Assembly: GCA_016192545.1 (NCBI GenBank)
Contig: JACPTX010000007.1
Coordinates: 1 to 53,626, forward strand
Reading direction: 5' to 3'
From: Candidatus Omnitrophota bacterium
GTDB taxonomy: Bacteria; Omnitrophota; Gorgyraeia; Aquiviventales; Aquiviventaceae
DNA: 53,626 bases
This document shows positions 10,283 through 45,805 of this stretch, in pieces; position 1 is the first letter of the stretch, and each line of letters begins with the position of its first letter. Below the pieces are notes generated by a model. That model was not told the DNA's origin. It ran no database searches and saw only the letters and a program-made list of their open reading frames with translations. Both the position numbers and the translations under genes were made by a program.

Positions 10283-10317
10283 CTGAAAATTATAGAGGGT
10301 TCTCCGACCCTTGTACA
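10283..10317 (-). promoter_or_regulatory. Sigma70-type promoter, probably producing a leaderless mRNA
   Basis: Minus strand reads TGTACA (10317-10312), 17 nt, perfect TATAAT (10294-10289), 6 nt, ATG (10282). It lies in one of only two sizeable intergenic gaps, and there is no Shine-Dalgarno sequence. Confidence 0.72.
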
Positions 10318-10333
10318 CACCGACGGTGACCCG

Positions 10334-11362: not shown

Positions 11363-12399
11363 GGCTTCACCCCCACGAGCCACCACTCCCCCACGCCGCA
11401 GCACCCCCGCCCAACGACTTGGCAGGTCGGCAGGTACTGGTCCAGCGCAGTCTGGTCGCCAGCCGCCAGCAGCGCCTCAATGCGCTGCGATTCTTCCATC
11501 CACCGGGCGTGTCGCCACGACCTGTCGGCTTCAGGCGAGTCGCTGCGATAGACCTCGGCATCCTGCTCCCGCTGCACGGTCCATGCCGAGGCCTGGCGGA
11601 TCAGATGGGCTCGATAGGGCGACAGCAGCCAAGTGATGGGTTGATGATTCGCCTGATCTGCGAGGGGAGGCTCCAGCGGCGGCCAGCTCCGGTAGAGCGA
11701 CAGCTCCGCCTCCACCATCCAGTCAAACAGATCCGCCAACGCGATCGGCTGATGGCGGGGCGTGAGAAAATTATCGGCGACGATCTGCAGCTCTGTCCGA
11801 CTTCCAAACCGCCTCGCCCGATCCAGGTATTCCGGAAACCACTTCCGCATCAGCGCCACGGCTCGTTCGGCCTCGCCCCCTGAGAACCGTGAAATCAGCC
11901 GTCTCAGCAGCACACGCTGCTCGGCCCCCGGCAACGGCGCGACGCAGATGACCACAAGCCCCCCCGACTTCACGCTGGCCGCGAGCTTGCGAAAGGCACC
12001 ACGCTGGTCCTCCACATGATCCAGCACTCCGTCTGCGACCGCGATGTCGTACGATTGCCTCGGCTGCCACTGGCTGATTGACGTACATTCAACCGTCGCG
12101 TGAAGCCGTCTCCGCGCAAACAGTGTCTGGAGCCGTTCAAGCGCAAGACGGTTGAAGTCGACCCCAGTGACCTGCGCTCCCCACGCAGCATAGACCAGCG
12201 TATGCTCGCCGGTCCCGCACCCAAGATCCAACACCTGGGCGCCACGGAACAGTTGCAGGGGGAGATGCAGGCGATCCCGGAAGATGCGAAGGCGCCGCTC
12301 CACCAGGGCCTCCCACGCCTCCGGAGTCTCCACAGGCATCCGGGAGGGGTTGACGGTCCGATAGTGTTGCAAGACCTGCGCTTCAATCGGGCGACTCAT
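11359..12399 (-). CDS. Class I SAM-dependent methyltransferase
   Basis: VLDLGCGTGE, GVDF, YDIAVADGVLDH and KSGG motifs. Strong SD (AAGGAGGT) before ATG 12399. Confidence 0.85.
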   Translation of the reverse strand: MSRPIEAQVLQHYRTVNPSRMPVETPEAWEALVERRLRIFRDRLHLPLQLFRGAQVLDLGCGTGEHTLVYAAWGAQVTGVDFNRLALERLQTLFARRRLHATVECTSISQWQPRQSYDIAVADGVLDHVEDQRGAFRKLAASVKSGGLVVICVAPLPGAEQRVLLRRLISRFSGGEAERAVALMRKWFPEYLDRARRFGSRTELQIVADNFLTPRHQPIALADLFDWMVEAELSLYRSWPPLEPPLADQANHQPITWLLSPYRAHLIRQASAWTVQREQDAEVYRSDSPEADRSWRHARWMEESQRIEALLAAGDQTALDQYLPTCQVVGRGCCGVGEWWLVGVKP

Positions 12400-19306: not shown

Positions 19307-19562
19307 CGACCTGGACGCCCCGCTTCGCCAACGCCGCTTTGAGATCGCCGAGACTGCGAATCCCCATGATCTCCGCGAGGGTCAGCGTCACCTGATAGCG
19401 CTGCTCCACCGCGCTGACCAGCAGGATACTGCGCAGCGAATCCCATCCGCGCACCGTCTCCGGCGAGGAGGCATCCGTCAGACTGGAGGGGTTCGCATGG
19501 AGCACCTCGCCGATCAGCCGGTACAACCCGTCTCCGGCCTGGCGCAGCGGAGCCATGCTCAT
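19299..19562 (-). CDS. Acyl carrier protein
   Basis: 87 aa with a GWDSL phosphopantetheine site, directly after FkbH (ATGA overlap). Confidence 0.85.
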   Translation of the reverse strand: MSMAPLRQAGDGLYRLIGEVLHANPSSLTDASSPETVRGWDSLRSILLVSAVEQRYQVTLTLAEIMGIRSLGDLKAALAKRGVQVDA

Positions 19563-21268
19563 TCCGCCGTCACCGTCACATGCGCCGGGACGGCCGGAAC
19601 ATGCGCTAACTCAAGCTGCCAGCGCTGCACTGAATCGTCGGTGCGCATGAGACTCACGCCACAGGCCTCGAGAAACCTCCTGGCCGGGGTGTTCTTCTCA
19701 GAGGGCCGATAGGCCACGCGCAGCTCCGACACCCCCCCGGCCTTCGCCCAGCCCGCCAGCACGCTCAACACGCTCTGCTCGACCCCTTTGCCCAACACCC
19801 GGCAGCTCAGCAGCCACAGGGGCACGTCCCACCAGCGGTCGTGCCGCTCAATGCTGAGCGCGCCGCTGATGCCCTGGTCGCCGAATCGGTCCGAGACTTC
19901 AATGGCATAGAGCCGCCGCCGAGGATCCCCCAGCCATTCAGCCAGCTGCGATTCGGTATAGCGCTCAAGCGTCAGGTTGAACTGGTTGGTCCGCTGGGTG
20001 AGCTGGGCCAGGCGCGGGATGGAAAACCGATCAGCCTCTCGAAGCCGGATCTGCACCTGCAATTGGCTGAGATACTCGTCGAGCGTGCGGACCTGCGTCC
20101 GGAATTCCCGCCGAGACCGCTCCTGCGCATACATGGCCCCCCGCCGGCGGTCTTCAGGCGTCAGGGACACCGCGTCCAACCCGACGAGCCGCTGCAACGT
20201 CCGCGCATACCCCGCAGGGTCCGGCGGCAGCTCCGGCACCAGCACCTCCGGGAGCTGCTGGGACACGAGCCACCGCTGCGCCGGCTCATCGTCGAGATAG
20301 ACCAGACTGTCCAGCCCAAGGTTGAGCTCTTCGGCGATGGCGCGCAGGTTCTCGGTCTTGGGCTCCCAGTTGATCTTCATCGACGCGAAATGCGGCTCGC
20401 GCAGCACCATCGCCGGATGCTCCCGGATGACTTTCAGGGCGTCGTCGGGATTGTTGGCGCTGTTGACGGCCAGCAGCACGCCGCGCTCGAATAACGCCAG
20501 CAGCTCCTGCTGGAACGCGACGAACGTGTTGCCGGGCGGTGTCGCACCGAGCTGGATGCCGTCGAAGCCGTCCTCGCCGACGATGCCGCCCCACAGCGTG
20601 TTGTCCAGATCGAGCACGAGGCATTTCCGGCTGCGTCCCCGCAGCGCCAGCAGATAGCGGGCATAGTCGTCGCCCAGCCGGCTCCAGGCGTCCGGCGCCA
20701 GTTCCATATCCGCGAGGTAGTACAGCCGGTCATCGAAGGCGGCGTCTTTCCCCGATCGGCTCAGCACGCTGTCGAGATCCAGCAGGAACACGCGCGCGTC
20801 GTTGCGGAACTCCTCCTGCAGGCGCTGGTTGATCCACCGCACGGTTTCCAGCCAGCCGAACTTCTGCTTGGACTCCAGAAGGCCCAATGGCGAGCTGGTG
20901 GGAACCGCCAGTCCATGCACCAACACCAAACCGGAGGTCCAAGTGGCAGCCACCTGCGCCATCTTGCTCAATCGATTGGCGGCGTCTTCGGCCGCACTCC
21001 TGCGTTCCTCAACTGTGACTCCGTACGGGTTCGTCCACAGTCCGCTCAACAGCTCGCGCGCGCTCACCACAAGGATCGTCAGCTCTGGACGGAACGTGTA
21101 TAACTCGCTGGCAGGATTGATGACCTCTTGCTGCCATTGGCCGTACGGCGCGACGTACCACGCCGTCTGGATGCCATGCGCGGCGCAGCGCGGCGACACC
21201 AGCTCCGGCACATGCCGCAGCGTGCCGGATCCGACCAAGGCGACGCGCACCGGCGCCGGGTCAGGCAT
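19559..21268 (-). CDS. fkbH: FkbH-like HAD-IIIC glyceryl transferase/phosphatase
   Basis: KCLVLDLDNTLWGG, INWEPK, YLDD, RTNQFNLT, DRFGDQG and LLSCRVLG motifs; start ATG 21268. Confidence 0.93.
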   Translation of the reverse strand: MPDPAPVRVALVGSGTLRHVPELVSPRCAAHGIQTAWYVAPYGQWQQEVINPASELYTFRPELTILVVSARELLSGLWTNPYGVTVEERRSAAEDAANRLSKMAQVAATWTSGLVLVHGLAVPTSSPLGLLESKQKFGWLETVRWINQRLQEEFRNDARVFLLDLDSVLSRSGKDAAFDDRLYYLADMELAPDAWSRLGDDYARYLLALRGRSRKCLVLDLDNTLWGGIVGEDGFDGIQLGATPPGNTFVAFQQELLALFERGVLLAVNSANNPDDALKVIREHPAMVLREPHFASMKINWEPKTENLRAIAEELNLGLDSLVYLDDEPAQRWLVSQQLPEVLVPELPPDPAGYARTLQRLVGLDAVSLTPEDRRRGAMYAQERSRREFRTQVRTLDEYLSQLQVQIRLREADRFSIPRLAQLTQRTNQFNLTLERYTESQLAEWLGDPRRRLYAIEVSDRFGDQGISGALSIERHDRWWDVPLWLLSCRVLGKGVEQSVLSVLAGWAKAGGVSELRVAYRPSEKNTPARRFLEACGVSLMRTDDSVQRWQLELAHVPAVPAHVTVTAE

Positions 21269-22196
21269 CGCCGCTCCGTTGCGCAAGCAGATACAGGTCA
21301 TGGCCGGTGTCGCCGAGCAGCGTCAGCGCGCCGTTCACCGGCACCGCCAGCGCCTTCATGGTGTAATGTTTGGCGAGATACAGCGTGCGCGCAAGCCGCA
21401 TGCGGCCCGTCGCGGCGCGGCCGTGGCCGGAGGCCCGGCCGAGCGCCCTCGACGCCACCCCGAACTGCAGCGTCTGGTGCAGCCAGCTTTCGGCCTGCGC
21501 CATGCCGACCGCCACGCGCTCCACGCGGAACCCCGCTCCGACGACCGCGCGCTCAAGCGCGCGCCGGCTCCAGCGCGTCAGATGGTGCGGAGGAGCATCC
21601 CAGTGATAGCGGAACGCCGGACGGCGGTCCCGGTACGGCACGCTCAGCGCCAGCCAGCCACCGGGAACCACGAGGCGGTGCACCGTCTGTAAGAACGCCC
21701 GCGGCGAGGGGCTGTGCTCCAGCACTTCAAACGCCGTCACCACGTCGAATGCGCCGGGGCGCAAGGTCTCCAGCGGCGCGGCGTACAGCCGCGACAGCCC
21801 GTGACGCCGCGTCGCTTCTCCGATCGCGTGCTGGTCGAAATCCACGCCGCTCACCTCGTAGCCGCGACGGCGCGCCGCGGCCAGAAACGCGCCGGTGCCG
21901 CAGCCGACGTCCAGCAGCCGCCCGCCGCGGGCCGGCAGGTCGCGCAGGAACTGCCGGTGGTTCCACAGCAGCCCCGCCGGCTGGAACCGGTCGCGCATGA
22001 CGTACATCGGCTGGCCCTCGTACCACGGCCCGTCCACGGACGGCATCGGATCGCTGTACACCACGTCGCATCCCGCGCAGTGGACCAGCGCGGTGTCTCC
22101 GTGCCGCTCGATGACGCGCGGCGCGGCCGGCGGCGCCGCGCAGACCGGGCACGCGGTCCCGGCGCCAACGGCCCGGCTCGGTGCGGTGGTCGTCAT
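21261..22196 (-). CDS. Class I SAM-dependent methyltransferase with N-terminal Zn ribbon
   Basis: CPVC...CAGC, LLDVGCGTG, FDVVTAFEVLEH and PPHHL motifs; start ATG 22196 (ATGA overlap). Confidence 0.9.
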   Translation of the reverse strand: MTTTAPSRAVGAGTACPVCAAPPAAPRVIERHGDTALVHCAGCDVVYSDPMPSVDGPWYEGQPMYVMRDRFQPAGLLWNHRQFLRDLPARGGRLLDVGCGTGAFLAAARRRGYEVSGVDFDQHAIGEATRRHGLSRLYAAPLETLRPGAFDVVTAFEVLEHSPSPRAFLQTVHRLVVPGGWLALSVPYRDRRPAFRYHWDAPPHHLTRWSRRALERAVVGAGFRVERVAVGMAQAESWLHQTLQFGVASRALGRASGHGRAATGRMRLARTLYLAKHYTMKALAVPVNGALTLLGDTGHDLYLLAQRSGDA

Positions 22197-36612: not shown

Positions 36613-37949
36613 GGTTTTCGAAACACGGGTTGCACCACCGGCCCCTCCAAGAGGGCGCCAAGCCGGCGCTCCCTGAGCGCGGCGGCCAGCAGCTCCAGCG
36701 CCGTGCGGTAGACGCGCAGGGCCGCGTCCACGTCCTCGTCGGTGTGCGCCAGGCACATGTTGTGCGTCGCGGTGAAGAGCAGGCCCCGCTTGAGGCATTC
36801 CTGCTGGACGTACGTCTTCATCGCCAGCCCGTCCGGACCGTTGAACATGACGCCGGTTCTCGGCGACAGCCCGAGGCACCGGGTCGCCTGCCCCAGGCCG
36901 TACGCCTCGGCGAGCGCGTTATAGCTCTCGCGGAGCCGCCGGCCCCGCTCCCAGAGCGTCTCGATCGCGCCGGGTTCCCTGAGCGCCTCGATGGTCGCCT
37001 TGGCTGCGGCCAGCGACGCCGTCTCCCCGCCGAAGGTCGAGGAGAAAAAGACCTCTTCAAACAGCTGCATCACGTCCCGCCGCCCGGCGAGCGCGGCCGA
37101 CGGCATGCCGTTGGCCAGCCCCTTGCCGACACAGGCCAGGTCCGGGATCACGCCGAAGCGCTGCTGCGCGCCGCCGAGCCCGACGCGAGGCCACGTGACG
37201 ATCTCATCGAAGATCATGAGCGCCCCATGCCGCCTCGTCACCTCGCGCACGCCTTCCAAAAATCCCTGCGCCGGCTCCACCAATCCGACCGGCTCCATGA
37301 TCACGGCCGCCACCCGGCCCGGGTGCGACGCGAAGAGCGCCTCAAGCGATGCCAGGTCGTTGTACGCGAAGGCCTTCGTCAGCCCGGCCACGGCATCCGG
37401 CACCCCGCGGCGGCGCGTGGTCGTGCCCACGAACCAATCCTGCCACCCGTGATACCCGCAGCACAGCATCAGATCCCGGCCGGTGAACGCGCGCGACACC
37501 CGCACCGCCGCCGAGGTGACGTCGCTGCCGTTCTTGCCGAAGCGCACCATCTCCGCGCACGGGATCAGCTCCGCCAGCAGCCGCGCGACCTCCAGCTCCA
37601 GCGGATGGCTCAGGGTGAACGAGATGCCCTCGCGCGCCTGGCGCGCAATCGCCTCCGCCACCCGCGCATCGCCGTAGCCGAGGGTGACCGCGCCCAGCGC
37701 CATCGAGAAGTCCAGGTACTCGTTGCCGTCCACGTCCCAGACGCGGCAGCCGGACCCGCGCTGGAGATAGACCGGGGCCACGCCCTGCACGAACTGCGTC
37801 GGCCCTTTGCTGAAGGTCTGCGAGCAGCCCGGGATCAGAGCCTCGCCCTCCCGCTTCAAGGCCTGCGACCGCTCCAGCCGGCGCGCCTGCGGCGGCACCG
37901 GCGGCGCGCTCAGCAGCGCGCGGATGTGGTCCTCACTCACGACCGGCAT
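36609..37949 (-). CDS. Class III PLP aminotransferase (glutamate-1-semialdehyde aminomutase-like, glycan-locus type)
   Basis: SQTFSKGP, WDVDGNEYLD, FGKNGSD, GYHGW, FDEIVT, GKGLANG and SSTFGGE motifs. Confidence 0.9.
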   Translation of the reverse strand: MPVVSEDHIRALLSAPPVPPQARRLERSQALKREGEALIPGCSQTFSKGPTQFVQGVAPVYLQRGSGCRVWDVDGNEYLDFSMALGAVTLGYGDARVAEAIARQAREGISFTLSHPLELEVARLLAELIPCAEMVRFGKNGSDVTSAAVRVSRAFTGRDLMLCCGYHGWQDWFVGTTTRRRGVPDAVAGLTKAFAYNDLASLEALFASHPGRVAAVIMEPVGLVEPAQGFLEGVREVTRRHGALMIFDEIVTWPRVGLGGAQQRFGVIPDLACVGKGLANGMPSAALAGRRDVMQLFEEVFFSSTFGGETASLAAAKATIEALREPGAIETLWERGRRLRESYNALAEAYGLGQATRCLGLSPRTGVMFNGPDGLAMKTYVQQECLKRGLLFTATHNMCLAHTDEDVDAALRVYRTALELLAAALRERRLGALLEGPVVQPVFRKP

Positions 37950-38629
37950 CACGCCCGCCTCCGCTCCCAGTCCGCGCGCAGGATGCCCATGACGTATTTG
38001 TCGTGGAAGACTCCGTCCCGGAACAGCTGCTCTTTCAAGGTCCCCTCGATCACAAAGCCGAGCCGCTGGTAGAGGCGCACCGCCGCCGCATGATCCGCGT
38101 GGACGCCCAGCGTGATCTTGTGGAGGTTCAGCCGGCGGAAGGCGTAGTCCAGGATCAGCGCGATGGCTTCCCCGCCGTAGCCCAGGCCCCAGACCCGCTT
38201 GTCCCCCACCATGATGCCCATGTCGGCGCGCCGGTGGATCGGATGGATCGGCCCCAGCTTGATGTTGCCGACGTGCGCGCCGCTGCGCCGGTCCGTGATC
38301 GCCAAGAGCACGTTGTCGGGATTGGCCGCGACCTGCTCGTAGTATCGGCGCAGCGACTCCGGCGTCGTCGGAAACGAGCCGGTTTCCAGAAAGCGCGTCA
38401 CCTCATAGTCGTTGAGCCAGTCGCGGTACGGCCCGTCCAGGTCGCGCACGGTCAACGGCCGCAGGATGATCCGCTCGCCGGACAAAAACGGTCCGGGTGA
38501 ACGCCGGGTAGGCTGAGCGGGTGACGCGGAGCGGGCGGCTCGCCTACGGCTCCCCGCACTTCCTTCGCCCACCCAGCTTCGCTGGGTACCCGGGCTCGGT
38601 CGCAGGCCCCGCTCAGCTTTCTTGGCCAT
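37949..38629 (-). CDS. GNAT (RimJ/RimL, PseH-like) N-acetyltransferase with a ~45-aa low-complexity N-terminal extension
   Basis: HVGNIKL, WGLGYG.EA, LNLHKITLGV and YQRLGFVIEG motifs. Confidence 0.88.
   Translation of the reverse strand: MAKKAERGLRPSPGTQRSWVGEGSAGSRRRAARSASPAQPTRRSPGPFLSGERIILRPLTVRDLDGPYRDWLNDYEVTRFLETGSFPTTPESLRRYYEQVAANPDNVLLAITDRRSGAHVGNIKLGPIHPIHRRADMGIMVGDKRVWGLGYGGEAIALILDYAFRRLNLHKITLGVHADHAAAVRLYQRLGFVIEGTLKEQLFRDGVFHDKYVMGILRADWERRRA
38512..38617. repeat. ~106-108-bp palindromic element forming the GNAT N-terminal extension
   Basis: Perfect 10-bp terminal inverted repeat GCTGAGCGGG (38512-38521) / CCCGCTCAGC (38608-38617); internal hairpin ACCCAGC-ttc-GCTGGGT (38571-38587). 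Confidence 0.72.
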
Positions 38630-39645
38630 CAGCGTCGCTCTCCGATCCTGGCGACGTCGTAGGGCGCGGCGTGGTCGCGGGCGGTCAGCGCAAGCGCGAG
38701 CAGACGGCAGGCGTCCTCGAGACTCAGCAGCGGCTGCGCGCGGCCTTCCACGCAGGCGATGAAGTGCTTCAACTCTTCGAGATACATCTCATTGCCGTCG
38801 TACGCCTCGCGGCGCTCCAGGTCGGTCCAGCGTCCCGATGAGGCGTCGTAGCCCTGCACCACCACCTGCTCCGGGCGCTTGCCCCGGCTTTCCCAGCGCA
38901 GCACGCCGCCGGTGCCGATGACCTCGCACCCGCGCAATTTGCACGGGCTCAGGTAATCCAGGCGGATCTCGCCGACCGCGCCGGCCTCAAACTGCAGCAT
39001 CACCAGCGCGACATCCTCCGAATCAATCTCCAGCTCGCTGACATGGTCGGCGCACGCCTGGATGGCGGCGACCTCGCCCGCCATCCAGCGCAGATAATCC
39101 AGCTCATGCAGGCCTTCCAGGATGATCCCGCCGCCCTGGTCGCGCCGGGCGCTGTACGACTGCCGGTAATCCTGTCCCGGCCGCCAGTTCGGCAGGTAGT
39201 GGCTGAACCAGGCCCGGAAGATCAGCGGCCGCGTCAGGCGTCCGGCGTCCAGCGCCGACTTGAGCGCGGCCACGCCGGGATGAAAGCGCATATTGCAGGC
39301 GACAAGTCCCGTTCGGCCCTGAGCCCGCAGCGCGGCGAGGAGCGTCTCGGTGCCGTCCAGCGAGGCGGCCACCGGCTTTTCGATGAACAGATGCGCCCCG
39401 GCCTGTGCGGCCGCCAGCGCCGCCGGCAGGTGCTGATGCGTCGGCGTGCAGACCAGCACCGCCTCGGGCCGCCTGGCCAACGCGTCCTCCAGGCGCGCGT
39501 GGGCGCGCACGCGCAGCGCCTGCGTCAAGGCCTCGCGCCGCGAGGCATCGGGCTCGCACAGCTCGACGTCGCCGGCGTCCAGCGCCAGCAGGTTCGCCAG
39601 ATGGCGCCGGCCGATGGAGCCGCCCCCGACGACGAGCCACCTCAT
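38629..39645 (-). CDS. Gfo/Idh/MocA-family NAD(P)-dependent oxidoreductase
   Basis: VVGGGSIGRRH, CTPT..H, FIEKP, YLPNWRP..DYR.SYSA and GGG...HELD motifs; start ATG 39645. Confidence 0.92.
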   Translation of the reverse strand: MRWLVVGGGSIGRRHLANLLALDAGDVELCEPDASRREALTQALRVRAHARLEDALARRPEAVLVCTPTHQHLPAALAAAQAGAHLFIEKPVAASLDGTETLLAALRAQGRTGLVACNMRFHPGVAALKSALDAGRLTRPLIFRAWFSHYLPNWRPGQDYRQSYSARRDQGGGIILEGLHELDYLRWMAGEVAAIQACADHVSELEIDSEDVALVMLQFEAGAVGEIRLDYLSPCKLRGCEVIGTGGVLRWESRGKRPEQVVVQGYDASSGRWTDLERREAYDGNEMYLEELKHFIACVEGRAQPLLSLEDACRLLALALTARDHAAPYDVARIGERR

Positions 39646-40376
39646 CTCCCTGCCTCCGCACCCCCGGCCAGCCAGTGGCCAGGGCCGGGGCGGGCGCACG
39701 CCTGCGCGTCCATCAATGCCTCGGCGATCACCAGATGGGCCGGCTCATCAATGTCCACCGAGCGCTCCCGCGGGATCGGGTAGCCGACCAGCCGCTCGCC
39801 GTAGAGCGCGCGCTCCCGGCGCAGCGCGTCCACCCGCATGAAATAAAAATAGCCGCTGTCCACCCAGACCTTCGGCAGTTGCTGGCTGGCGACGAGATAG
39901 TCCTTGCCGAAGAACGGCCGCAGGTAGCCGTCCACCTCGTGCAGCGCCCAGAACGGCGCCTCCAGGAACGTCGTAACCGCCATGACGAAATCCGCCTTGC
40001 GCTCGTCCAGCATCGCCGCCCCGCCGCGCAGGTCCTCCGGCCGCATCAGCGCAGCGGTCGGCAGGATCAGGCACAGCACGTCGGCGGGCGTGCCGCGCTG
40101 CGCCAGCCACTCCGTGAAATCCAGGCACACGTCCACCAGCCGCGCCGCGTCGCCGGCCAGTGACGCCGCCCGGTCATGCACACTGGCGCCGAATTGCCTG
40201 GCCACGTCAGCGATCTCGGCGTCGTCGGTGGACACCCAGACCTCAGGAAACAGGCCTGACGCCTTGGCCGCCTCGACGGTGTAGCCGAGGACCGGCTTGC
40301 CCTTCAGGGGCGCGATGTTCTTGCGGGGAAACCGCTTCGACGTGCCGCGTGCCGGGATCAGGCAAGCGTAGCGCAT
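39642..40376 (-). CDS. neuA: CMP-nonulosonic acid synthetase (acylneuraminate cytidylyltransferase, NeuA/PseF)
   Basis: IPARGTSKRFPRKNI, VSTDD, PTA..R and SVDIDEP motifs; start ATG 40376. Confidence 0.9.
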   Translation of the reverse strand: MRYACLIPARGTSKRFPRKNIAPLKGKPVLGYTVEAAKASGLFPEVWVSTDDAEIADVARQFGASVHDRAASLAGDAARLVDVCLDFTEWLAQRGTPADVLCLILPTAALMRPEDLRGGAAMLDERKADFVMAVTTFLEAPFWALHEVDGYLRPFFGKDYLVASQQLPKVWVDSGYFYFMRVDALRRERALYGERLVGYPIPRERSVDIDEPAHLVIAEALMDAQACARPGPGHWLAGGAEAGR

Positions 40377-41419
40377 CACACGTCTTCCCACCGGATCGGA
40401 TCGTTCTCCGCCAGATCCCGCCGGACGGGCTTGCCCACGAACGCGTCCAGCAGCTCCGGCGAAATACCGGCCTCAGGCCGCTTGCCGCCCAGTAGCTCCG
40501 GGGTCAGGATGGCGCCCTTGGGGATCGGCGCGCGCGCCGCGAGGTGGCGGAACCACTTCCTGCGCTCGGACAGGTCCGCCCGGCTTGGGATCAGCGCCTC
40601 CTCCCCCAGCGCCGAGTGGACGCTGCGCATCAGGCGCACGTAGCCGGTGAACTCCTCCGGCTCCATGGACAGGATGTGGTGATGGCCGGGCATCTTCCGG
40701 CTCACCGTCAGCCGCTTCTCCAGCACCACCGCGCCCAGCGTGACGGCCATGATGTCAGGCGTGGCGTCGCGGTCTTTGGCGGAGAAGCCGACCAGCGTCT
40801 GGAATGTCTCGCGCAGGTACGGGATGGCGCGCATGTTCATTTCGGCGACGCGCCCGGTGTGGTAGCAGTGGACGAGCACGCTCTGGTCGTTGCCGGCGTC
40901 CTGCATGAGCTGGATCGCCCGCGCGACCTCGACGGCGTTCACCGGCCCGGTGTCGATGAGCATCGGCTTGCCGAGCTGCGCGATGGCGCGCCACAGCGGC
41001 GCGTCGGTGTAATCCCAGGAGCTGAGCTTGTAGGCCTCCAGCCCCAGCGCCTCGGCCCACACGATCCCGCTGGGTGAGTTGACCGTCGCAAAGAGGATGA
41101 CGCCCTGCCGGTCGGCGTAGCGCTTGATCTCGCGCCATTGGTCGAGGGTGAAGCGCAAGCGATTCAACATCTCGTACATGTTCTCTTCGCGCGGGCCGTC
41201 CACCGTCTCGTAGCGGTAGCGGACGCTGCGGTCGCTCATGATCTCATCCGGGAACCAGAGGATCAGCTTGATGGCGTCGGCGCCGGCGGCGCGCACCGCG
41301 TCGATCAGCCGTGTGGTGATCTCCACGTCGTAGTTGCAGGTCACACCGCACTCCGCCATGACGAACAGCGGCCGGCCCTCGCCGATGACCGTGTCGCGGA
41401 CCCGGATCTCGCGCCGCAT
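40376..41419 (-). CDS. NeuB-family (nonulosonate synthase fold + SAF domain) protein with non-canonical active site
   Basis: Colinear with PseI at 35500 (IG.G.P..V.AE, AAGADA.K, KPM...TG, GA...EK, KRP..GISP) but the key motifs are substituted; see findings. Confidence 0.85.
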   Translation of the reverse strand: MRREIRVRDTVIGEGRPLFVMAECGVTCNYDVEITTRLIDAVRAAGADAIKLILWFPDEIMSDRSVRYRYETVDGPREENMYEMLNRLRFTLDQWREIKRYADRQGVILFATVNSPSGIVWAEALGLEAYKLSSWDYTDAPLWRAIAQLGKPMLIDTGPVNAVEVARAIQLMQDAGNDQSVLVHCYHTGRVAEMNMRAIPYLRETFQTLVGFSAKDRDATPDIMAVTLGAVVLEKRLTVSRKMPGHHHILSMEPEEFTGYVRLMRSVHSALGEEALIPSRADLSERRKWFRHLAARAPIPKGAILTPELLGGKRPEAGISPELLDAFVGKPVRRDLAENDPIRWEDV

Positions 41420-43110
41420 CAGAGCACGTCCTCAGACTCGACCAGGAAGTTCCCGAGCGCCAGGTACGGCAGGCCGCTCGCCCGGAAGGCGCGCACCGCG
41501 TCGTCCGCCGTGCAGACGATCGGCTCCTCATGCATGTTGAAGCTCGTGTTGATGACGCTGCTCAACCCTGTGCGCCGATGGTAGGCGCTCAGGATCGCGT
41601 GAAACGAGGGATGGTCGTCTTTGAAGACGACCTGCGGCCTGGCGGTGCCATCCACGTGGACCGCCGCCGGCGCGTCGGCGCGCATCGTGGGGGTGCAGTC
41701 GTAGGTCATCGTCATGTGCCGCGAGGGCAGCTGCTCCGGCTTCCAGCCGACGTAGCAGCCGGCCGCGTGCTCGGCCAGCGTCGCCGGCGCAAAGGGCATG
41801 AACTCCGACCGGCTGAGGGCCCTGTTCAACCAGTCATTCACCGACGGGTCGGTCGCCCGGCACAGGATGCTGCGGTTGCCCAGGGCGCGCGGGCCGTACT
41901 CCATGCGCCCGGCGCAGCGCGCCACCACGTGGCCTTCGGCCAGCAACGCGGCGATGCGCTCCTCGAGATCCGGCACGCGCCGGCAGCGCAGCCCGCTGGA
42001 GGCCAGCAGATCCTCGATCTCCCGCTCGCCGGGCTCCTGGCCCAGGTACAGCGTGCGCAGCGGCTCCGGCATCCGGCCGGTTTCCCTGGCGTGGACCAGC
42101 CACGCCGCGCCGACGGACAGGCCGCCGTCGCCCATGTTCGGGAAGACGAAGAGGTTGCGGACGTTGGCCAGCTCGCGGATGCGCTGGTTGAGCTTCACGT
42201 TGGCGAAGATCCCGCCCGCCACCGCCAGCCGCGCCGCGCCTCCATCCTGGTCCGCCACGCACGTGCACACGACTTCCTCGAGACTGCGCTGCGCCGAGGC
42301 GGCCACGTCCTCCCGCGGGAACCGGCGCACGAACTCCCGCAGCGCCGGGTTCTCGAAGCGCGGCACGTACAGCCCATGCTCCATCCGGCCGATGAACCGC
42401 TTGACGCGCCCATCGTAATCGATCATCGCCCGGATCGCCGGATACGACTGCGGGGATTCGCAGTACGCCGCCAGGCCGAGCACCTTGCCCTCATGCCGGT
42501 GCGGCACGAAGCCCAGCGACTTGGTGATGCTGCCGTAGAAATACCCCAGCGAATCGAAGGTGTGGGAGCGCGTCAGGAGCGACATCCGTCCTCCGGCGGC
42601 GCGCCACACCGTCGAGGAGCCGTCCTCCCCCCAGCCGTCCGCCGTCAGCGCCAGGCAGCCCTCCCAGCCGGAGCCGAAGTAGGCGGAGGCGGCGTGCGCC
42701 TCGTGGTGGCCGACGACCTGCACGGGCCGTCCCAGCGCCCGGATCTCCTCGAGATACGTGGGCGTGCGGCTGCCCAGCACCATGCGCTCATGCTCCAGCC
42801 GGGTGCGCAGGTGCGTCAGCTGGGCCTCGCGCTGCTGCGGGGACAGCGGCGCATCGAGGATCCGGCGCTCTTTCTCTTCAAATGGCCCCGGGTCCGGCGC
42901 GGGTGGCGCCGCCCCGTGCGTCGCGACCACGTCAATCTCGTCCAGCGTCAGGCCCGCCAGCTTGAGGACCGCCTGGATCGCGCCCCGCGGGACGCCGTTC
43001 CACAGCTTGACCCGGTTGAGCCGCTCCTCGCTCACCGCGGCGACGAGCTGCCCGTCCCGGAGGACGACCGCCGACGCGTCAGCGAGGAACGCGATCCCTA
43101 AGATATTCAT
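41419..43110 (-). CDS. O-carbamoyltransferase (NodU/CmcH/TobZ family)
   Basis: SEERLNRVK, HHEAHAASAY, TADGWGE, EGKVLGLAAY, GGIFANVKLN, GDGG, EYGPRALGNRS, FMPFAP, HVDGTARPQ and NTSFNMHEEPIV motifs. Confidence 0.95.
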   Translation of the reverse strand: MNILGIAFLADASAVVLRDGQLVAAVSEERLNRVKLWNGVPRGAIQAVLKLAGLTLDEIDVVATHGAAPPAPDPGPFEEKERRILDAPLSPQQREAQLTHLRTRLEHERMVLGSRTPTYLEEIRALGRPVQVVGHHEAHAASAYFGSGWEGCLALTADGWGEDGSSTVWRAAGGRMSLLTRSHTFDSLGYFYGSITKSLGFVPHRHEGKVLGLAAYCESPQSYPAIRAMIDYDGRVKRFIGRMEHGLYVPRFENPALREFVRRFPREDVAASAQRSLEEVVCTCVADQDGGAARLAVAGGIFANVKLNQRIRELANVRNLFVFPNMGDGGLSVGAAWLVHARETGRMPEPLRTLYLGQEPGEREIEDLLASSGLRCRRVPDLEERIAALLAEGHVVARCAGRMEYGPRALGNRSILCRATDPSVNDWLNRALSRSEFMPFAPATLAEHAAGCYVGWKPEQLPSRHMTMTYDCTPTMRADAPAAVHVDGTARPQVVFKDDHPSFHAILSAYHRRTGLSSVINTSFNMHEEPIVCTADDAVRAFRASGLPYLALGNFLVESEDVL

Positions 43111-44017
43111 CAGCGTGTTTCCTTCCGGCGAAAAACTTCTGAAGCCCTTCGTCCACCGTCGGGAGCGGACGCCCCAGCACGGCCGCCGCCCGCTCGACGC
43201 GCAACGTCACGTTCTTCGGCCGCGGAATGTGCAGCGGCACCGTGCGGCTGTCCACCGGCATGACCAGCTCTTCCGGAAAGCCGAACAGCCTGGCCAGCCG
43301 GCACGCGAACTCGTACTTCGAGCACCCGTCCGATGCGGCAACGTGCAAGACGCCCTGGATGGGCCGCCACATCAGATCCACGAGCAGCGCCGCCAGGTCA
43401 TCGGTCAACAGCGGCGAAAACAGCAAATCCCTGAACCCGGAGAACGGCCGGCCTTCCTGCAGCGACGACAGCACCCACTCCGCCAGGCTGCTTTGCGGCA
43501 GCACGTTCCAGCCGTAGAAGGCGGTCCGGATCACCAGCGCGTCCGGCCGGGCGCACAGGACCGCCTCCTCCCCTTCCACCTTCGTGCGGCCGTACACATG
43601 CAGCGGCGACGGTGCGTCATCCTCGCGGTAGGCGCCGCGCGCGCCGTCGAACACCGAATCCGATGAGAGAAAGATGAACCGGCCCACCCACTCGTCGCCC
43701 AGCGCCTGCAGGAGGTTTTTGGTGCCTTGGACGTTGACGGCGAAGGCGGCGTCGGGGTCGGCCTCGCACTGGTTGACCGAGGTCAGCGCCGCGGTGTGAA
43801 AGACAACAGCCGGTTTGATCGCGTTGACAGCCTCTTCGACGGCGCGCGCATGACGGATGTCCACCGGCAAGGTCCGGCACGGCGACGCCGCGGCTTGTGG
43901 ACGGCGCGCGATACCCCAGACGTCGTCACGCCCCGCCGTCGCGCGCACCAGCGCGCTGCCGAGCAGGCCGGTCACGCCGGTAATCAACACCCGCGGGCGG
44001 CGATCAGCGGCCGTCAT
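43079..44017 (-). CDS. RmlD-like NDP-4-keto-sugar reductase (SDR)
   Basis: ITGVTGLLG, HTAALT.V..CE, SSDSVFDG, YGRTK and IRT motifs. Confidence 0.88.
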   Translation of the reverse strand: MTAADRRPRVLITGVTGLLGSALVRATAGRDDVWGIARRPQAAASPCRTLPVDIRHARAVEEAVNAIKPAVVFHTAALTSVNQCEADPDAAFAVNVQGTKNLLQALGDEWVGRFIFLSSDSVFDGARGAYREDDAPSPLHVYGRTKVEGEEAVLCARPDALVIRTAFYGWNVLPQSSLAEWVLSSLQEGRPFSGFRDLLFSPLLTDDLAALLVDLMWRPIQGVLHVAASDGCSKYEFACRLARLFGFPEELVMPVDSRTVPLHIPRPKNVTLRVERAAAVLGRPLPTVDEGLQKFFAGRKHADEYLRDRVPR

Positions 44018-45065
44018 GTCTCACGGCGAGCGGAGTGCCTTCGGCCATCGAACCCTCGGAGGCGAGCGCGAGGATCTCCGTGGCGACCCGCCCGATCCCC
44101 TGCCCGTCGACGAGACGGCGGCCGGCCACCCCCATCGCGGCGCGCGCCGGCGCGTCGTGCGCCAGCGCCGTCAGCGCCGCCGCCAGCCGGGACGGGAAGC
44201 CGGCGTCATCCGCCGCGCCAAGGTCTTTCATCGCCCCGGCCGCGGATAACCCTCGGAGATTCAGCCGCTGATTGTCGGCCAGCAACATCCCTAATGCCGG
44301 CGTGGCGGTGGCCGCCAGCTCATACGCGGTCTGCCCGGCCGCGCTGATCGCCACGTCCGCCTGCAGCATCAGCGCGCGCATGTCGCCCGGCGTCTGATGG
44401 AAGGTCACGCGATCAGCCCCGTCCGGTGCCATGCCCGTGGGCGGGGCGAACGGCCCGAGGACGACGTCCACCGCCGCGTCCGGCAGGCTGCGCCGCGTGA
44501 CCTCAAGGATCGGCTGCAACCGCCCGCGTGACGTCCCCCCGCCGGTCAGGACCAGCACGCGCCGGACGGTCTCGGCGTACGCCGGCCGCTCGGGCGCCAG
44601 GGCGAATGCCGGCCGCAGGAGGATGTACCGGGGTCCAAGACGATAGCGCGTCACGGGCAATCCCTGATACGTCAGCGCCTCGGCGCCGGCCGACCCGTTC
44701 ACGACGAGATCCACGGGCACGCCCCTGGCTCCGATGTCATCGAGACACGCGACCGGCGCCTCGCGTCTGAGGGCGGCGAGACCCTCGGCCGGCAGCTCCG
44801 GGTCGTCAGCCACACAGACGACCGGCCGCGGCGCGCACCGCAGCAGCGCCGTGGCACGCGCCAACCCCTCCCCGTCCGGATCCACCTCGATGGGAAAGCC
44901 GGAGGGGCTGAGCGCCGCCGCGGCTTCAGCGGACGTCACGACGAACCTGACCGGCACCGGCGCGGCGCCCGACGCGAGGCGAGCCGCCAAGGTCCAGCTG
45001 CGCCGCAGATGCCCGAACCCGACGCGCTCACCGCCCGCGATCCGAAAGACCACCGTCGGCCTCAT
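44004..45065 (-). CDS. pseG: PseG/SpsG-like UDP-sugar hydrolase (GT28-like fold)
   Basis: VFRIAGG..VGFGHLRR, LDD, LGPRY.LLR..F, AISAAGQT.YE and ADNQ motifs; start ATG 45065. Confidence 0.8.
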   Translation of the reverse strand: MRPTVVFRIAGGERVGFGHLRRSWTLAARLASGAAPVPVRFVVTSAEAAAALSPSGFPIEVDPDGEGLARATALLRCAPRPVVCVADDPELPAEGLAALRREAPVACLDDIGARGVPVDLVVNGSAGAEALTYQGLPVTRYRLGPRYILLRPAFALAPERPAYAETVRRVLVLTGGGTSRGRLQPILEVTRRSLPDAAVDVVLGPFAPPTGMAPDGADRVTFHQTPGDMRALMLQADVAISAAGQTAYELAATATPALGMLLADNQRLNLRGLSAAGAMKDLGAADDAGFPSRLAAALTALAHDAPARAAMGVAGRRLVDGQGIGRVATEILALASEGSMAEGTPLAVRHDGR

Positions 45066-45805
45066 TCCATCTGCACCACCGGGGGGGCCGCGAGGTCGTG
45101 CGCCGGGCCCCACCCGAACCGCCGCCTCGCCTCGTGCGCCACGCGGGGCCATGGCATCTGCAGCTCGGCGCGCAGCGGCCGGGGGACCATGAGGCCGCGT
45201 TCGGCCAGGTGCCGGGCCGCCGCCGCCCCATGCGGCCCGAGCGCGGCGGTCAGCGCCTCGCGCATGCCCGGATCGCCGACGGCGACCGGTTCCCCGCGGG
45301 CGTCGGTGAGCATCGCGTCATGCGCCGCGTCCACGATCACCCATCTGCCGTCGAGGCGGACGAACGGCACGACCAGCCGGCCGCCGTCCGGGAACATGAA
45401 GACGCGCCAGAAGGCGGGGACGCCGGCATAGGCGCTCAGCGTGGCGAACACGTCGGCCCGCTGGTCCGCCAGCCCGTGCCCGCGGATCATGATGTGCAGG
45501 ATGTGGTCGTCAATGACCGGCCAGCCCTCCGGCGTCTGTCGGACGTGGTCATGGACCCAGGCCAGGACGGCCGCCGCCCGCTCACGGTCGGTCCGCAGCC
45601 CCTGCGTGATGTCACGCGCCGCCAGGCGGTACTGCTGGTCGCGGTGCAGGAAGGCGAGGAGCTTCGCGTAGAGCGGCAGCGTATGCGTGGAGACCTGAAA
45701 ATTGACGCCCTGTTTGGTCGCGGCCGGCAGCTGCAACACGCCGTAGACCGCCGTCGGCAAGACCAGCACGGCAAGACCGATCACCAGCAGGCGCCTCCGG
45801 CTCAT
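45062..45805 (-). CDS. Membrane-anchored transglutaminase-like domain protein (catalytic Cys/His apparently absent)
   Basis: N-terminal TM helix; AVLAWVHDHV, RGHGLADQRADVF..L...GVPA and LDGRWVIVDA follow the TGase-core pattern. Confidence 0.65.
   Translation of the reverse strand: MSRRRLLVIGLAVLVLPTAVYGVLQLPAATKQGVNFQVSTHTLPLYAKLLAFLHRDQQYRLAARDITQGLRTDRERAAAVLAWVHDHVRQTPEGWPVIDDHILHIMIRGHGLADQRADVFATLSAYAGVPAFWRVFMFPDGGRLVVPFVRLDGRWVIVDAAHDAMLTDARGEPVAVGDPGMREALTAALGPHGAAAARHLAERGLMVPRPLRAELQMPWPRVAHEARRRFGWGPAHDLAAPPVVQME

What the first reader, a model, noticed from the sequence alone, without database searches (positions are those of the whole stretch)
40376..41419. NeuB paralogue with a systematically rebuilt active site: candidate new enzyme chemistry
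Seen: this intact 347-aa ORF is colinear with the canonical PseI 4 kb away but differs at nearly every catalytic motif. AELSCNH becomes AECGVTC, VKLQT becomes IKLIL, KVASFE becomes KLSSWD, ILSTG becomes LIDTG, KCTSDYP becomes HCYHTG, GLSDHT becomes GFSAKD, IEKH becomes LEKR, and GPD becomes GHHH. The SAF domain and its Arg (FRHL) are kept. Established: the SDH and E-x-H histidines bind the catalytic Mn2+ in NeuB-family synthases, and the STG serine contacts PEP phosphate. Inference: both metal ligands became Lys/Arg while new Cys/His clusters appeared, which looks like repurposing rather than decay. It could be a metal-independent or re-metallated enzyme acting on a modified (e.g. carbamoylated) sugar, or a non-catalytic partner of PseI. 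It is translationally coupled between the carbamoyltransferase and the CMP-synthetase.
Basis: partly seen in the sequence, partly recalled or inferred. Interest (0 to 1): 0.85.

Follow-up and report, generated by a model that had tools for sequence, protein, structure and literature searches.

The report
Histidine-less NeuB-family clade in pseudaminic-acid clusters
This gene belongs to a large, strongly conserved and uncharacterised branch of the sialic-acid-synthase family that has lost both metal-binding histidines thought universal in that family, and it almost always sits beside a sugar-activating enzyme in pseudaminic-acid gene clusters, so it probably does new chemistry on bacterial sialic-acid-like sugars.

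Summary
The ORF at 40376-41419 lies on the minus strand. It encodes a 347-aa NeuB+SAF protein with a confident NeuB/PseI fold (pLDDT 95.5, TM 0.90).

They are not decay.
- Across 65 distinct family members, D156, R236, H246, H247, W135 and T27 are invariant.
- The PEP-carboxylate lysines and the SAF arginine R314 are retained.
- dN/dS is 0.05-0.23.
- Only the residue replacing Mn ligand H215 is free to vary.

The family is a subclade of a deep sister clade of all canonical NeuB/LegI/PseI (split support 100). In that clade S154 is always Asp and H236 is Arg or Lys.

In related loci a PseF-like cytidylyltransferase follows directly in 51 of 56. PseB-like genes lie upstream in 29 of 41. A canonical synthase is often present too. 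The carbamoyltransferase is an occasional neighbour (10 of 45).

I read it as an active aldol-type enzyme with a rebuilt active site. It would make or remodel a nonulosonic acid for CMP activation. The chemistry is untested, and my literature searches found no description of such a clade.

The parts
40376..41419 (-). Variant NeuB-family gene ('NeuBv', 347 aa): NeuB TIM barrel plus C-terminal SAF domain. Both Mn-ligand histidines are replaced.
   Evidence: ORF and translation. Pfam NeuB 169.4 bits and SAF 38.2 bits. Below the NeuB and PseI equivalog cut-offs. AF2 pLDDT 95.5. Foldseek TM 0.90 to PseI 8h2c and 0.89 to NeuB 1xuu. Motif conservation.
39642..40378 (-). PseF-like CMP-sugar cytidylyltransferase, translationally coupled to NeuBv by a TGATG overlap. 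It is the only CTP_transf_3 match on this contig.
   Evidence: Pfam CTP_transf_3 86 bits. PseF equivalog 180.1 bits, below the 205.7 cut-off. Junction read. One search found 7 matches in the genome, one of them on C58. Directly downstream of NeuBv in 51 of 56 related loci.
41419..43110 (-). NodU/TobZ-type carbamoyltransferase. Its stop overlaps the NeuBv start (TGATG).
   Evidence: Pfam Carbam_trans_N and Carbam_trans_C. Junction read. Directly upstream of NeuBv in only 10 of 45 loci.
35500..36612 (-). Canonical pseudaminic-acid-synthase-type NeuB paralogue carrying SDHT, EKH, STG and GPD.
   Evidence: Pfam NeuB 290 bits plus SAF. Translation. Groups with the L075 PseI, which scores above the PseI equivalog cut-off, inside the canonical clade.
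36609..37952 (-). Class-III (glutamate-1-semialdehyde-aminomutase-like) aminotransferase.
   Evidence: Pfam Aminotran_3. NCBIfam PRK06209 393.7 bits, below the 486 cut-off. Recurs after NeuBv-CTP-GFO in related loci.
37949..38629 (-). GNAT N-acetyltransferase.
   Evidence: Pfam Acetyltransf_3. Weak PseH match of 47 bits, below cut-off.
38629..39699 (-). GFO/IDH/MocA oxidoreductase.
   Evidence: Pfam GFO_IDH_MocA N- and C-terminal domains. Follows the cytidylyltransferase in many related loci.
43079..44017 (-). RmlD-like NAD(P)-dependent sugar reductase.
   Evidence: Pfam RmlD_sub_bind 188.8 bits. rmlD equivalog 185.5 bits, below the 224 cut-off.
44004..45152 (-). PseG-like protein (UDP-sugar hydrolase family).
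   Evidence: NCBIfam PseG 113.5 bits, below the 153.55 cut-off. No Pfam hit.

Best explanation
The gene encodes a member of an old, widespread and uncharacterised sister clade of the NeuB/LegI/PseI nonulosonic-acid synthases.

What the protein keeps:
- the fold;
- the two lysines and the threonine that hold the carboxylate of PEP;
- two of the four phosphate ligands;
- E23 and E234;
- the SAF-domain arginine that reads the sugar's N-acetyl group.

What it has changed: the Mn site and part of the phosphate and sugar pockets are replaced by a fixed new set of residues (T27, W135, D156, H187, R236, H246-H248).

I read it as a catalytically active aldol-type enzyme of a pseudaminic-acid-type pathway. 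It would either condense a three-carbon keto-acid donor with a 2-acetamido-6-deoxy-hexose, or remodel the nonulosonic acid made by the neighbouring canonical PseI. The product would pass to the translationally coupled PseF-like cytidylyltransferase for CMP activation. The catalytic centre would be either metal-free, with R236 standing in for Mn, or built on a relocated Asp/His metal site.

Shown: fold, substitutions, their conservation, purifying selection, clade structure and synteny.

Inferred: that it is catalytic, what it acts on, and the role of the new residues.
For: Real and conserved:
- 535 proteins reached E<=0.001 among 8000 scored candidates. The 120 listed are 61-72% identical and nearly all exactly 347 aa. 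Their sources name them as Omnitrophica, Okeania and Methylomirabilota MAGs.
- A further locus comes from a record titled Planctomycetia MAG.

Pocket under constraint:
- In 65 distinct full-length family proteins, E23, T27, C28, N29, K51, I53, T112, K131, S133, S134, W135, D136, D156, H184, E234, K235, R236, H246, H247, R291 and R314 are 65/65. H187 is 64/65 and H248 is 63/65.
- 9 of the 15 positions that bind substrates or metal in NmNeuB are invariant, against 52 of 347 columns overall (hypergeometric P about 5e-5, not corrected for relatedness).
- dN/dS is 0.05-0.23 in the 40 closest of 216 pairs.

Fold kept: pLDDT 95.5 and pTM 0.88. TM is 0.90 to PseI 8h2c and 0.89 to NeuB 1xuu.

Deep clade:
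- 29 variant rows separate from 40 other rows at SH-aLRT 100.
- The 36 canonical rows group at 99, with the window's own PseI nested well inside them.
- In 22 wider-clade representatives against 32 canonical ones: S154 is D 22/22 against S 32/32. H236 is R 21/22 and K 1/22 against H 32/32. H215 is H 0/22 against 32/32. D247 is H 17 and G 5 against D 32/32. Position 135 is W 22/22. K53, K129, E234 and R314 are universal in both groups.

Pathway context:
- A cytidylyltransferase lies directly downstream in 51 of 56 loci. It lies directly upstream in L085.
- A PseB-like gene lies upstream in 29 of 41 loci, and PseC directly upstream in 11 of 41.
- L075, L081 and L042 read PseB-PseC-NeuBv-cytidylyltransferase, with PseB and PseC above their equivalog cut-offs. 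In L075 and L081 the canonical synthase is also above the PseI cut-off. In L042 it falls below both the NeuB and PseI cut-offs.
- The gene is TGATG-coupled on both sides in the window.

Residue roles come from passages of PMC11339185, section 19, citing Gunawan 2005.
Against: - No biochemical datum exists for any member. My four literature searches on this question found none.
- Clusters that hold NeuBv usually also hold a canonical synthase: 19 of 30 loci with at least 6 kb on one side. In the window contig there is only one cytidylyltransferase. A second synthase is therefore not obviously needed, which fits a tailoring or accessory role as well as a synthase role.
- A conserved pocket is also what a ligand-binding, non-catalytic subunit would show.
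- The phosphate subsite looks degraded: S154 is Asp, S132 is relaxed to A/T/C/G in 11 of 22 wider-clade representatives, and a Trp is inserted next to it. This argues against ordinary PEP chemistry but does not say what replaces it.
- I could not read model coordinates. That the new residues meet at one point is inferred from their homologous positions, not measured.
- The window gene has no close relative (best 68-72% aa), so its own dN/dS could not be estimated. The selection figures are for other family members.
Confidence: 0.55

Rival explanations
1. Non-catalytic paralogue (pseudoenzyme). It would bind the nonulosonic acid or its precursor and serve as a regulatory, scaffolding or channelling subunit for the cytidylyltransferase. 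Alternatively it would be one half of a domain-swapped heterodimer with canonical PseI.
For: - Both Mn ligands are gone, and the literature describes them as fully conserved in active synthases.
- The phosphate subsite is altered.
- A canonical synthase is present in 19 of 30 sufficiently long loci.
- The carboxylate-binding lysines and R314 are retained, as a binder would need.
- Pairing with the cytidylyltransferase is tight.
Against: - The replacements are fixed to specific polar or ionisable residues (D156, H187, R236, H246, H247) across a clade with members only about 30% identical. That is more typical of a working catalytic or metal site than of a plugged one.
- E23 and E234 are kept.
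- Five of the loci with 8 kb on both sides show no canonical synthase within reach.
- NeuBv stays 57-68% identical while its cytidylyltransferase neighbour drops to 34-40% in many loci. That is not what co-evolving subunits usually show.
Confidence: 0.22
2. An ordinary PEP-dependent nonulosonic acid synthase. It would perform the same reaction as PseI, LegI or NeuB on a slightly different hexose. Its metal ligands would simply have migrated (for example to H187 and H246-248), so it remains divalent-metal dependent.
For: - Same fold, with K51, K131, T112, S134, S213, E23, E234 and R314 kept.
- The synthase-then-cytidylyltransferase gene order matches canonical NeuB-NeuA pairs and fusions, such as the 591-aa NeuB-cytidylyltransferase fusion elsewhere in this genome.
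- The new histidines lie on loops next to the old metal site (for strand positions; proximity is inferred).
Against: - S154 is Asp 22/22, S132 is relaxed, and W135 is inserted next to it. All three sit in the phosphate pocket.
- The sugar ligands also differ: Q55 is Ile in the close family, and D247 is His.
- A canonical PseI-type gene co-occurs in the same operon.
- The protein scores about half the equivalog cut-offs.
Confidence: 0.13
3. A decaying duplicate of the neighbouring PseI, intact by chance.
For: It is a second NeuB-family gene 3.8 kb from a canonical one and lacks the catalytic histidines.
Against: - Hundreds of 347-aa homologues share the same substitutions.
- dN/dS is 0.05-0.23.
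- The clade splits from all canonical sequences at support 100 and is not sister to PseI.
- The fold is confidently predicted.
Confidence: 0.01

Closest known systems
N-acetylneuraminate synthase NeuB of Neisseria meningitidis (PDB 1xuu/1xuz/2wqp)
   Same: TIM barrel plus SAF domain, TM 0.89. K53/K129/T110 equal K51/K131/T112. S132 and S213 are kept. E234 is kept, and E23 aligns to the barrel Glu that I number E25 from memory (that number comes from no call). R314 is kept in the KRP motif.
   Different: H215 becomes a variable position and H236 becomes invariant Arg. S154 becomes Asp, N184 becomes His, Q55 becomes Ile, D247 becomes His, and a Trp is inserted after S134. Sequence identity is 22%. 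The protein is below the NeuB equivalog cut-off.
Pseudaminic acid synthase PseI (Campylobacter jejuni, PDB 8h2c; TIGR03586)
   Same: Best sequence and fold match among solved structures: E 5.1e-32 and TM 0.90. Found in the same PseB/PseC/PseG/PseF-type clusters.
   Different: Not a PseI orthologue. It scores 172.9 bits against a cut-off of 340.25. PseI sequences nest inside the canonical clade on the other side of the 100-support split. A true PseI usually sits alongside it.
Metal-independent (class I) versus metal-dependent (class II) KDO8P synthases (recalled from general knowledge; no call)
   Same: A precedent within the same superfamily of PEP-utilising alpha-carboxyketose synthases for losing a metal requirement through ligand substitution.
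   Different: In KDO8PS a single Cys-to-Asn change suffices, and the other ligands and the PEP site stay. Here both ligands and part of the phosphate and sugar pockets are rebuilt.
EpaA/EpaB nonulosonate tailoring enzymes of Acinetobacter prophages (PMC12053666; passages read)
   Same: Extra genes that alter pseudaminic acid and work with a CTP_transf_3 domain.
   Different: EpaA is a cytidylyltransferase fused to an aldo-keto reductase, and EpaB is a short-chain dehydrogenase. Neither has a NeuB fold. In the window, the GFO/IDH/MocA, class-III aminotransferase and RmlD-like neighbours resemble that redox logic more than NeuBv does.

Membership tests
NeuB superfamily (Pfam PF03102 + SAF PF08666) | NeuB TIM-barrel domain followed by a SAF/antifreeze-like domain | tested here: met
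   Pfam NeuB 169.4 bits and SAF 38.2 bits, both above the gathering scores. AF2 model with TM 0.89-0.91 to NeuB and PseI structures.
Functional nonulosonic acid synthases (NeuB/LegI/PseI) | Two histidines that bind the catalytic divalent metal (NmNeuB H215 and H236) | tested here: not met
   K215 (variable in the family) and R236 (65/65) stand at those positions. The histidines are H 32/32 in canonical representatives and 0/22 in the variant clade. Their role is stated in PMC11339185.
Functional nonulosonic acid synthases (NeuB/LegI/PseI) | PEP phosphate ligands (NmNeuB S132, S154, S213, N184) | tested here: not met
   S134 and S213 are kept. S154 is D156 (65/65) and N184 is H187 (64/65). In the wider clade S132 is S in only 11 of 22.
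Functional nonulosonic acid synthases (NeuB/LegI/PseI) | PEP carboxylate ligands (K53, K129, T110) | tested here: met
   K51, K131 and T112 are invariant, 65/65. K is 22/22 in the wider clade.
Functional nonulosonic acid synthases (NeuB/LegI/PseI) | SAF-domain arginine contacting the sugar N-acetyl group (R314) | tested here: met
   R314 in the KRP motif aligns to NmNeuB R314. It is 65/65 in the family and 22/22 in the wider clade.
Functional nonulosonic acid synthases (NeuB/LegI/PseI) | Metal-dependent condensation of PEP with a 2-acetamido aldose | not testable with these tools
   Needs an enzyme assay.
PseI equivalog (TIGR03586) / NeuB equivalog (TIGR03569) | Score above NCBI's curated cut-off | tested here: not met
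   172.9 against 340.25, and 205.5 against 399.65.
Variant ('EKR') NeuB clade defined here | T27, W135, D156, H187 and R236, with no His at 215, and membership of the 100-support clade | tested here: met
   All are present in P0001. Clade membership comes and the signature frequencies. Caveat: the tree included the signature columns.

The most novel reading that the evidence does not exclude
The clade has switched from PEP to an unphosphorylated keto-acid mechanism. D156, H187 and H246-248 would hold a new divalent metal where the PEP phosphate used to sit, or would pair with R236 there. This would stabilise a pyruvate-type enolate, as class II aldolases do. The enzyme would then be a reversible nonulosonate aldolase. 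It would cleave and re-form the C3-C4 bond of pseudaminic acid made by PseI, or build the sugar from pyruvate. The result would be the C4 epimer (L-glycero-L-gluco configuration) or another new nonulosonate, which the divergent PseF-like enzyme would then activate. That would be a new enzyme class within the NeuB fold and a route to nonulosonate stereoisomers whose biosynthesis is unknown.
Probability: 0.15. Interest if true: 0.85.

Novelty: new variant of a known kind. Interest (0 to 1): 0.68.

Why it matters
Nonulosonic acids (sialic, legionaminic and pseudaminic acids) cap bacterial flagella, capsules and S-layers. They shape phage attack and immune recognition.

Passages of PMC11339185 describe the two metal-binding histidines as fully conserved in bacterial and mammalian synthases, and metal dependence as a key evolutionary trait of the family. 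This gene shows that a large, ancient and strongly constrained branch of the family has abandoned both histidines and rebuilt the pocket. It has stayed embedded, next to the activating enzyme, in pseudaminic-acid clusters of many environmental phyla.

The finding points to an unrecognised step or product in nonulosonate biosynthesis. Current annotation pipelines label all these proteins 'N-acetylneuraminate synthase family'. The finding also gives a short signature (T27, W135, D156, R236, no H215) to separate them. If the chemistry is new, it offers a biocatalyst for rare nine-carbon sugars that are hard to synthesise.

Tried and rejected
- **Complex prediction.** NeuBv (alignment A2) with its cytidylyltransferase neighbour (alignment A4) returned 'no answer', score 0.00. 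I do not use it either way.
- **Expression.** No RNA holder was listed for window:39642-43110. The eight runs were DNA metagenomes. I laid no reads.
- **Genome scan.** I should have used the alignment. Contexts therefore come mainly from 80 metagenome loci, which are not de-duplicated. For example L047/L048 and L081/L082 look like near-copies.
- **Plasmid collection.** 153 records matched, all below 60% identity. The 15 listed are 29-32%, and some are annotated pseI or neuB. I saw no close family member and did not inspect their motifs.
- **ESM Atlas.** It returned only generic NeuB-family clusters.
- **Search for longer proteins.** One 735-aa protein carries aminotransferase domains (including DegT-type) fused to NeuBv: P0272, a single sequence on a single contig. 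This is too thin to use as a Rosetta-stone argument.
- **Own-phylum search.** 49 of 401 genomes matched at E<=1e-60, but only G000 and G101 scored above 600 bits. The next 28 loci I inspected are all canonical. I did not inspect 22 lower-scoring matches.
- **L108.** I first read L108 as flagellin, glycosyltransferase, NeuBv, cytidylyltransferase and Maf with no other Pse gene. One search then found a PseB-like gene on the opposite strand 3.8 kb away, so I withdrew that reading.
- **Primary source.** The primary NeuB structure paper (JBC 2005) is not held. Residue roles are taken second-hand from passages of PMC11339185. The roles of E25, E134 and E234 are recalled and come from no call.
- **Other papers.** In PMC8208679 a term search for metal and histidine found nothing. 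In the SugarBase preprint I read passages only. It reports unassigned C10 ulosonic acids but no genes relevant here. Supplementary files were not opened.
- **Solved structures.** I did not inspect the motifs of PDB entry 3g8r, a divergent NeuB-family structure.
- **Model coordinates.** I could not read them, so no distances between the new residues were measured.
- **Decay of a PseI copy.** Considered and rejected (see rivals).
Full report
**1. The observation**

The ORF at 40376-41419 is intact, 347 aa long, starts with ATG and lies on the minus strand. The plus-strand reading is full of stops. It matches Pfam NeuB (169.4 bits) and SAF (38.2 bits). It reaches only about half of NCBI's curated cut-offs for true synthases: NeuB_NnaB 205.5 against 399.65, and PseI 172.9 against 340.25.

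A canonical paralogue lies at 35500-36612 (-), with Pfam NeuB 290 bits. It shows AELSCNH, VKLQT, KVASFE, ILSTG, KCTSDYP, GLSDHT, IEKH and GPD. The ORF has AECGVTC, IKLIL, KLSSWD, LIDTG, HCYHTG, GFSAKD, LEKR and GHHH in their places.

Against solved N. meningitidis NeuB, phmmer aligns SAK to SDH and EKR to ERH. The two Mn-binding histidines H215 and H236 therefore become K215 and R236. The KRP arginine R314 is kept. Both flanking junctions read TGATG, a stop/start overlap.

**2. What the residues do in known enzymes**

Passages of PMC11339185 (section 19, citing Gunawan et al. 2005) give the roles, here in NmNeuB numbering:

- H215 and H236 bind Mn2+. [quoted passage not shown]
- S132, S154, S213 and N184 bind the PEP phosphate.
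- K53 and K129, with T110 nearby, bind the carboxylate.
- Q55, Y186, D247, N74, F288 and R314 contact ManNAc.

Mapped through the alignment, the ORF compares as follows.

| NmNeuB residue | Role | ORF residue |
|---|---|---|
| K53 | carboxylate | K51 (kept) |
| T110 | near carboxylate | T112 (kept) |
| K129 | carboxylate | K131 (kept) |
| S132 | phosphate | S134 (kept) |
| S213 | phosphate | S213 (kept) |
| R314 | sugar N-acetyl | R314 (kept) |
| Q55 | sugar | I53 (changed) |
| S154 | phosphate | D156 (changed) |
| N184 | phosphate | H187 (changed) |
| H215 | Mn | K215 (changed) |
| H236 | Mn | R236 (changed) |
| D247 | sugar | H247 (changed) |

I did not see the primary paper.

**3. It is a family, and the new residues are fixed**

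A word-indexed search found 535 proteins at E<=0.001 among 8000 scored candidates. The 120 listed are 61-72% identical and almost all exactly 347 aa. Their sources name them as Omnitrophica, Okeania and Methylomirabilota MAGs.

I assembled 65 distinct full-length family proteins from the window, L001 and the metagenome loci.

- Invariant (65/65): E23, G25, T27, C28, N29, Y30, K51, I53, T112, K131, S133, S134, W135, D136, D156, G158, H184, E234, K235, R236, G245, H246, H247, R291 and R314.
- Nearly invariant: H187, C185 and S213 at 64/65, and H248 at 63/65.
- Variable: position 215 carries ten different residues, with K in 28.

Of the 15 positions homologous to NmNeuB ligand residues, 9 are invariant, against 52 of 347 columns overall. 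The hypergeometric P is about 5e-5, uncorrected for relatedness. NG86 dN/dS is 0.05-0.23 in the 40 closest of 216 pairs. The window gene itself has no relative close enough for such an estimate.

**4. Fold**

An AlphaFold2 model built on alignment A3 has mean pLDDT 95.5 and pTM 0.88. Foldseek places it on C. jejuni PseI (8h2c, TM 0.90) and NmNeuB (1xuu, TM 0.89), then on DAHP and KDO8P synthases. The conserved residues sit at the C-terminal ends of the predicted barrel strands. That they converge in space is inferred from homology, because I could not read coordinates.

A profile search of the PDB found only the eight known NeuB-family entries. None is closer than the canonical enzymes. I did not inspect 3g8r.

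**5. A deep clade, not a spoiled PseI**

An exhaustive search of 50%-identity representatives gave 10090 hits at E<=0.001 and 799 at E<=1e-30. Among the 150 best, 28 carry Arg at position 236, and they show related motifs down to about 30% identity.

In a 69-row tree (IQ-TREE quick, LG+G4), the 29 variant rows split from the other 40 with SH-aLRT 100. The 36 canonical rows group at 99. The window's PseI and the L075 PseI nest deep inside them. One caveat applies: the tree used all columns, including the signature ones, and it is unrooted.

The table compares 22 wider-clade representatives with 32 canonical ones.

| Position (NmNeuB) | Variant clade (n=22) | Canonical (n=32) |
|---|---|---|
| S154 | D 22 | S 32 |
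| H236 | R 21, K 1 | H 32 |
| H215 | H 0 | H 32 |
| D247 | H 17, G 5 | D 32 |
| 27 (ORF numbering) | T 21 | N 31 |
| 135 (ORF numbering) | W 22 | varied |
| S132 | S 11 | S 32 |
| K53, K129, E234 | universal | universal |
| R314 | R 22 | R 31, G 1 |

The clade signature is therefore T27, W135, D156, H187 and R236 with no His at 215. C28 and I53 are fixed only in the close family.

In a sample of 401 genomes of the window's own phylum, only G000 and G101 hold the close family. The next 28 loci I inspected are canonical, and 22 weaker matches were not inspected. This scattered distribution across differently named phyla suggests horizontal spread of the cassette. That is an inference.

**6. Genomic context**

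The set is 81 loci (L001 plus 80 metagenome loci, not de-duplicated).

- A CTP_transf_3 gene lies directly downstream of NeuBv in 51 of 56 loci with at least 700 bp downstream. In L085 it lies directly upstream.
- A carbamoyltransferase lies directly upstream in only 10 of 45.
- A PseB-like gene lies somewhere upstream in 29 of 41 loci. A PseC-like gene lies directly upstream in 11 of 41.
- A canonical NeuB/PseI gene is in the locus in 19 of 30 with at least 6 kb on one side. Five loci with 8 kb on both sides show none.

Two layouts recur.

- **Layout 1:** PseB-PseC-NeuBv-cytidylyltransferase-PseG-acyl/formyltransferase-PseI. In L075, PseB, PseC, PseG and PseI are above their equivalog cut-offs. 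The cytidylyltransferase scores 169 bits against PseF's 205.7.
- **Layout 2 (the window's):** PseG-like, RmlD-like, carbamoyltransferase, NeuBv, cytidylyltransferase, GFO/IDH/MocA oxidoreductase, GNAT, class-III aminotransferase, PseI, a Pfam-less ORF and HisH/HisF.

Across both layouts NeuBv stays 57-68% identical to the window protein. Its cytidylyltransferase neighbour ranges from 34 to 71%. The window contig holds only one CTP_transf_3 gene.

**7. Interpretation**

Shown:
- A confidently folded NeuB-type protein.
- Loss of both Mn ligands.
- A new, fixed set of polar residues at positions that contact phosphate, metal and sugar in NeuB.
- Retention of the carboxylate site, two barrel glutamates and the N-acetyl-reading arginine.
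- Strong purifying selection.
- A deep, separate clade.
- Near-obligate pairing with a PseF-like cytidylyltransferase inside pseudaminic-acid-type clusters.

Inferred: the protein binds a 2-keto-3-deoxy acid or its three-carbon precursor together with a 2-acetamido sugar, and it catalyses an aldol-type step whose product is CMP-activated next door.

Two sub-readings seem about equally likely. In the first it is a synthase that works without the classical Mn site, with R236 or a relocated Asp/His site doing the metal's job. In the second it acts on the nonulosonate made by PseI. The degraded phosphate subsite (D156, relaxed S132, W135) and the co-resident canonical PseI lean me slightly away from plain PEP chemistry.

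My boldest reading is a pyruvate-type, class-II-like reversible aldolase that yields a C4 epimer. I give it about 0.15.

The rivals are a non-catalytic ligand-binding partner (0.22), an ordinary metal-dependent synthase with migrated ligands (0.13), and decay (0.01, refuted).

**8. Comparison with the known, and novelty**

The protein is a member of the NeuB superfamily by fold and Pfam. It fails defining features of the functional synthases: the metal histidines, two of four phosphate ligands, and the equivalog scores. I therefore do not file it as NeuB, LegI or PseI.

Four literature searches, plus term searches within one phylogenomic paper on 13,941 NeuB sequences, turned up no description of a histidine-less clade. 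Supplements were not seen. Known nonulosonate tailoring, such as EpaA/EpaB (passages), uses redox enzymes and not a NeuB fold.

I rate it a new variant of a known kind. A specialist would be surprised by the loss of residues described as universally conserved. The pathway question it raises can be tested directly with available Pse precursors.

**9. Limits**

- There is no biochemistry, no coordinates, and no RNA evidence.
- The complex prediction gave no verdict.
- Contexts come from short, partly redundant metagenome contigs.

Noticed in passing
G000: C58:35785-36501, C58:40598-41308, C40:35191-35874, C40:38360-39052, C40:46059-46763, C63:25961-26548: This 1.35-Mb, 86%-complete genome holds six NeuB-family matches and seven CTP_transf_3 matches. 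That is an unusually heavy investment in nonulosonate-type sugars for so small a genome.
   Followed up: partly
L006:1405-3180 (+) = G000 contig C40: A 591-aa fusion of a NeuB-type synthase (GFADH and IEKH kept) with a C-terminal cytidylyltransferase.
   Followed up: partly
window 29193-35540 (-): Two sets of glutamine-amidotransferase/cyclase genes: a HisH-HisF fusion at 32887-34383, HisH at 32229-33047 and HisF at 29193-30152. Three Pfam-less ORFs lie among them (34350-35540, 31072-32256, 29948-31108). The set may be acetamidino-forming machinery; that function is recalled and was not tested. The ORF at 34350-35540 is 77-80% identical across related loci.
   Followed up: partly
window 509-28159 and 46529-52731 (-): The whole window is one glycan island. 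It includes a GT4-family initiating transferase, several glycosyltransferases and a TylF-type plus at least six other methyltransferases. It also holds a radical-SAM/SPASM gene (10334-11404), a DegT aminotransferase (9125-10318) and a KpsS/KpsC-like Capsule_synth gene (12396-13973). Others are an FkbH-like gene (19559-21301), a flippase, SGNH/GDSL acylhydrolases, a PhyH dioxygenase and an asparagine-synthase-like gene.
   Followed up: partly
proteins P0174, P0194, P0208, P0197: A second small NeuB subgroup keeps S-D-H (S-C-H in P0197) but has Thr or Pro in place of H236 (EKT or EKP), and D-T-G or similar in place of S-T-G. It groups next to the canonical clade with support 86.
   Followed up: no
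proteins P0274-P0286; loci L036, L037: Canonical NeuB domains fused to UDP-galactopyranose-mutase/amine-oxidase-type domains in proteins of about 795 aa. These are recurrent in metagenomes and in the window's phylum.
   Followed up: no
protein P0272: A single 735-aa protein carries aminotransferase domains (including DegT-type) together with a NeuBv domain. It is one sequence on one contig, so it could be a real fusion or a gene-calling artefact.
   Followed up: no
L108:622-12808: Here NeuBv and its cytidylyltransferase sit between an 887-aa flagellin and a large glycosyltransferase on one side. On the other side is a 1009-aa Maf/MptE-like TPR protein. A PseB-like gene lies 3.8 kb away. This points to flagellin glycosylation in that organism.
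   Followed up: partly
L047:6173-6934; L071:3324-5841: Sulfate-activation or PAPS-reductase-type genes (CysH, CysD and CysN-like) lie just upstream of NeuBv in two unrelated loci.
   Followed up: no
L040:2711-3421; L098:2091-2831: The cytidylyltransferase next to NeuBv carries internal stop codons in these two metagenome contigs. This could be sequencing error or pseudogenisation.
   Followed up: no
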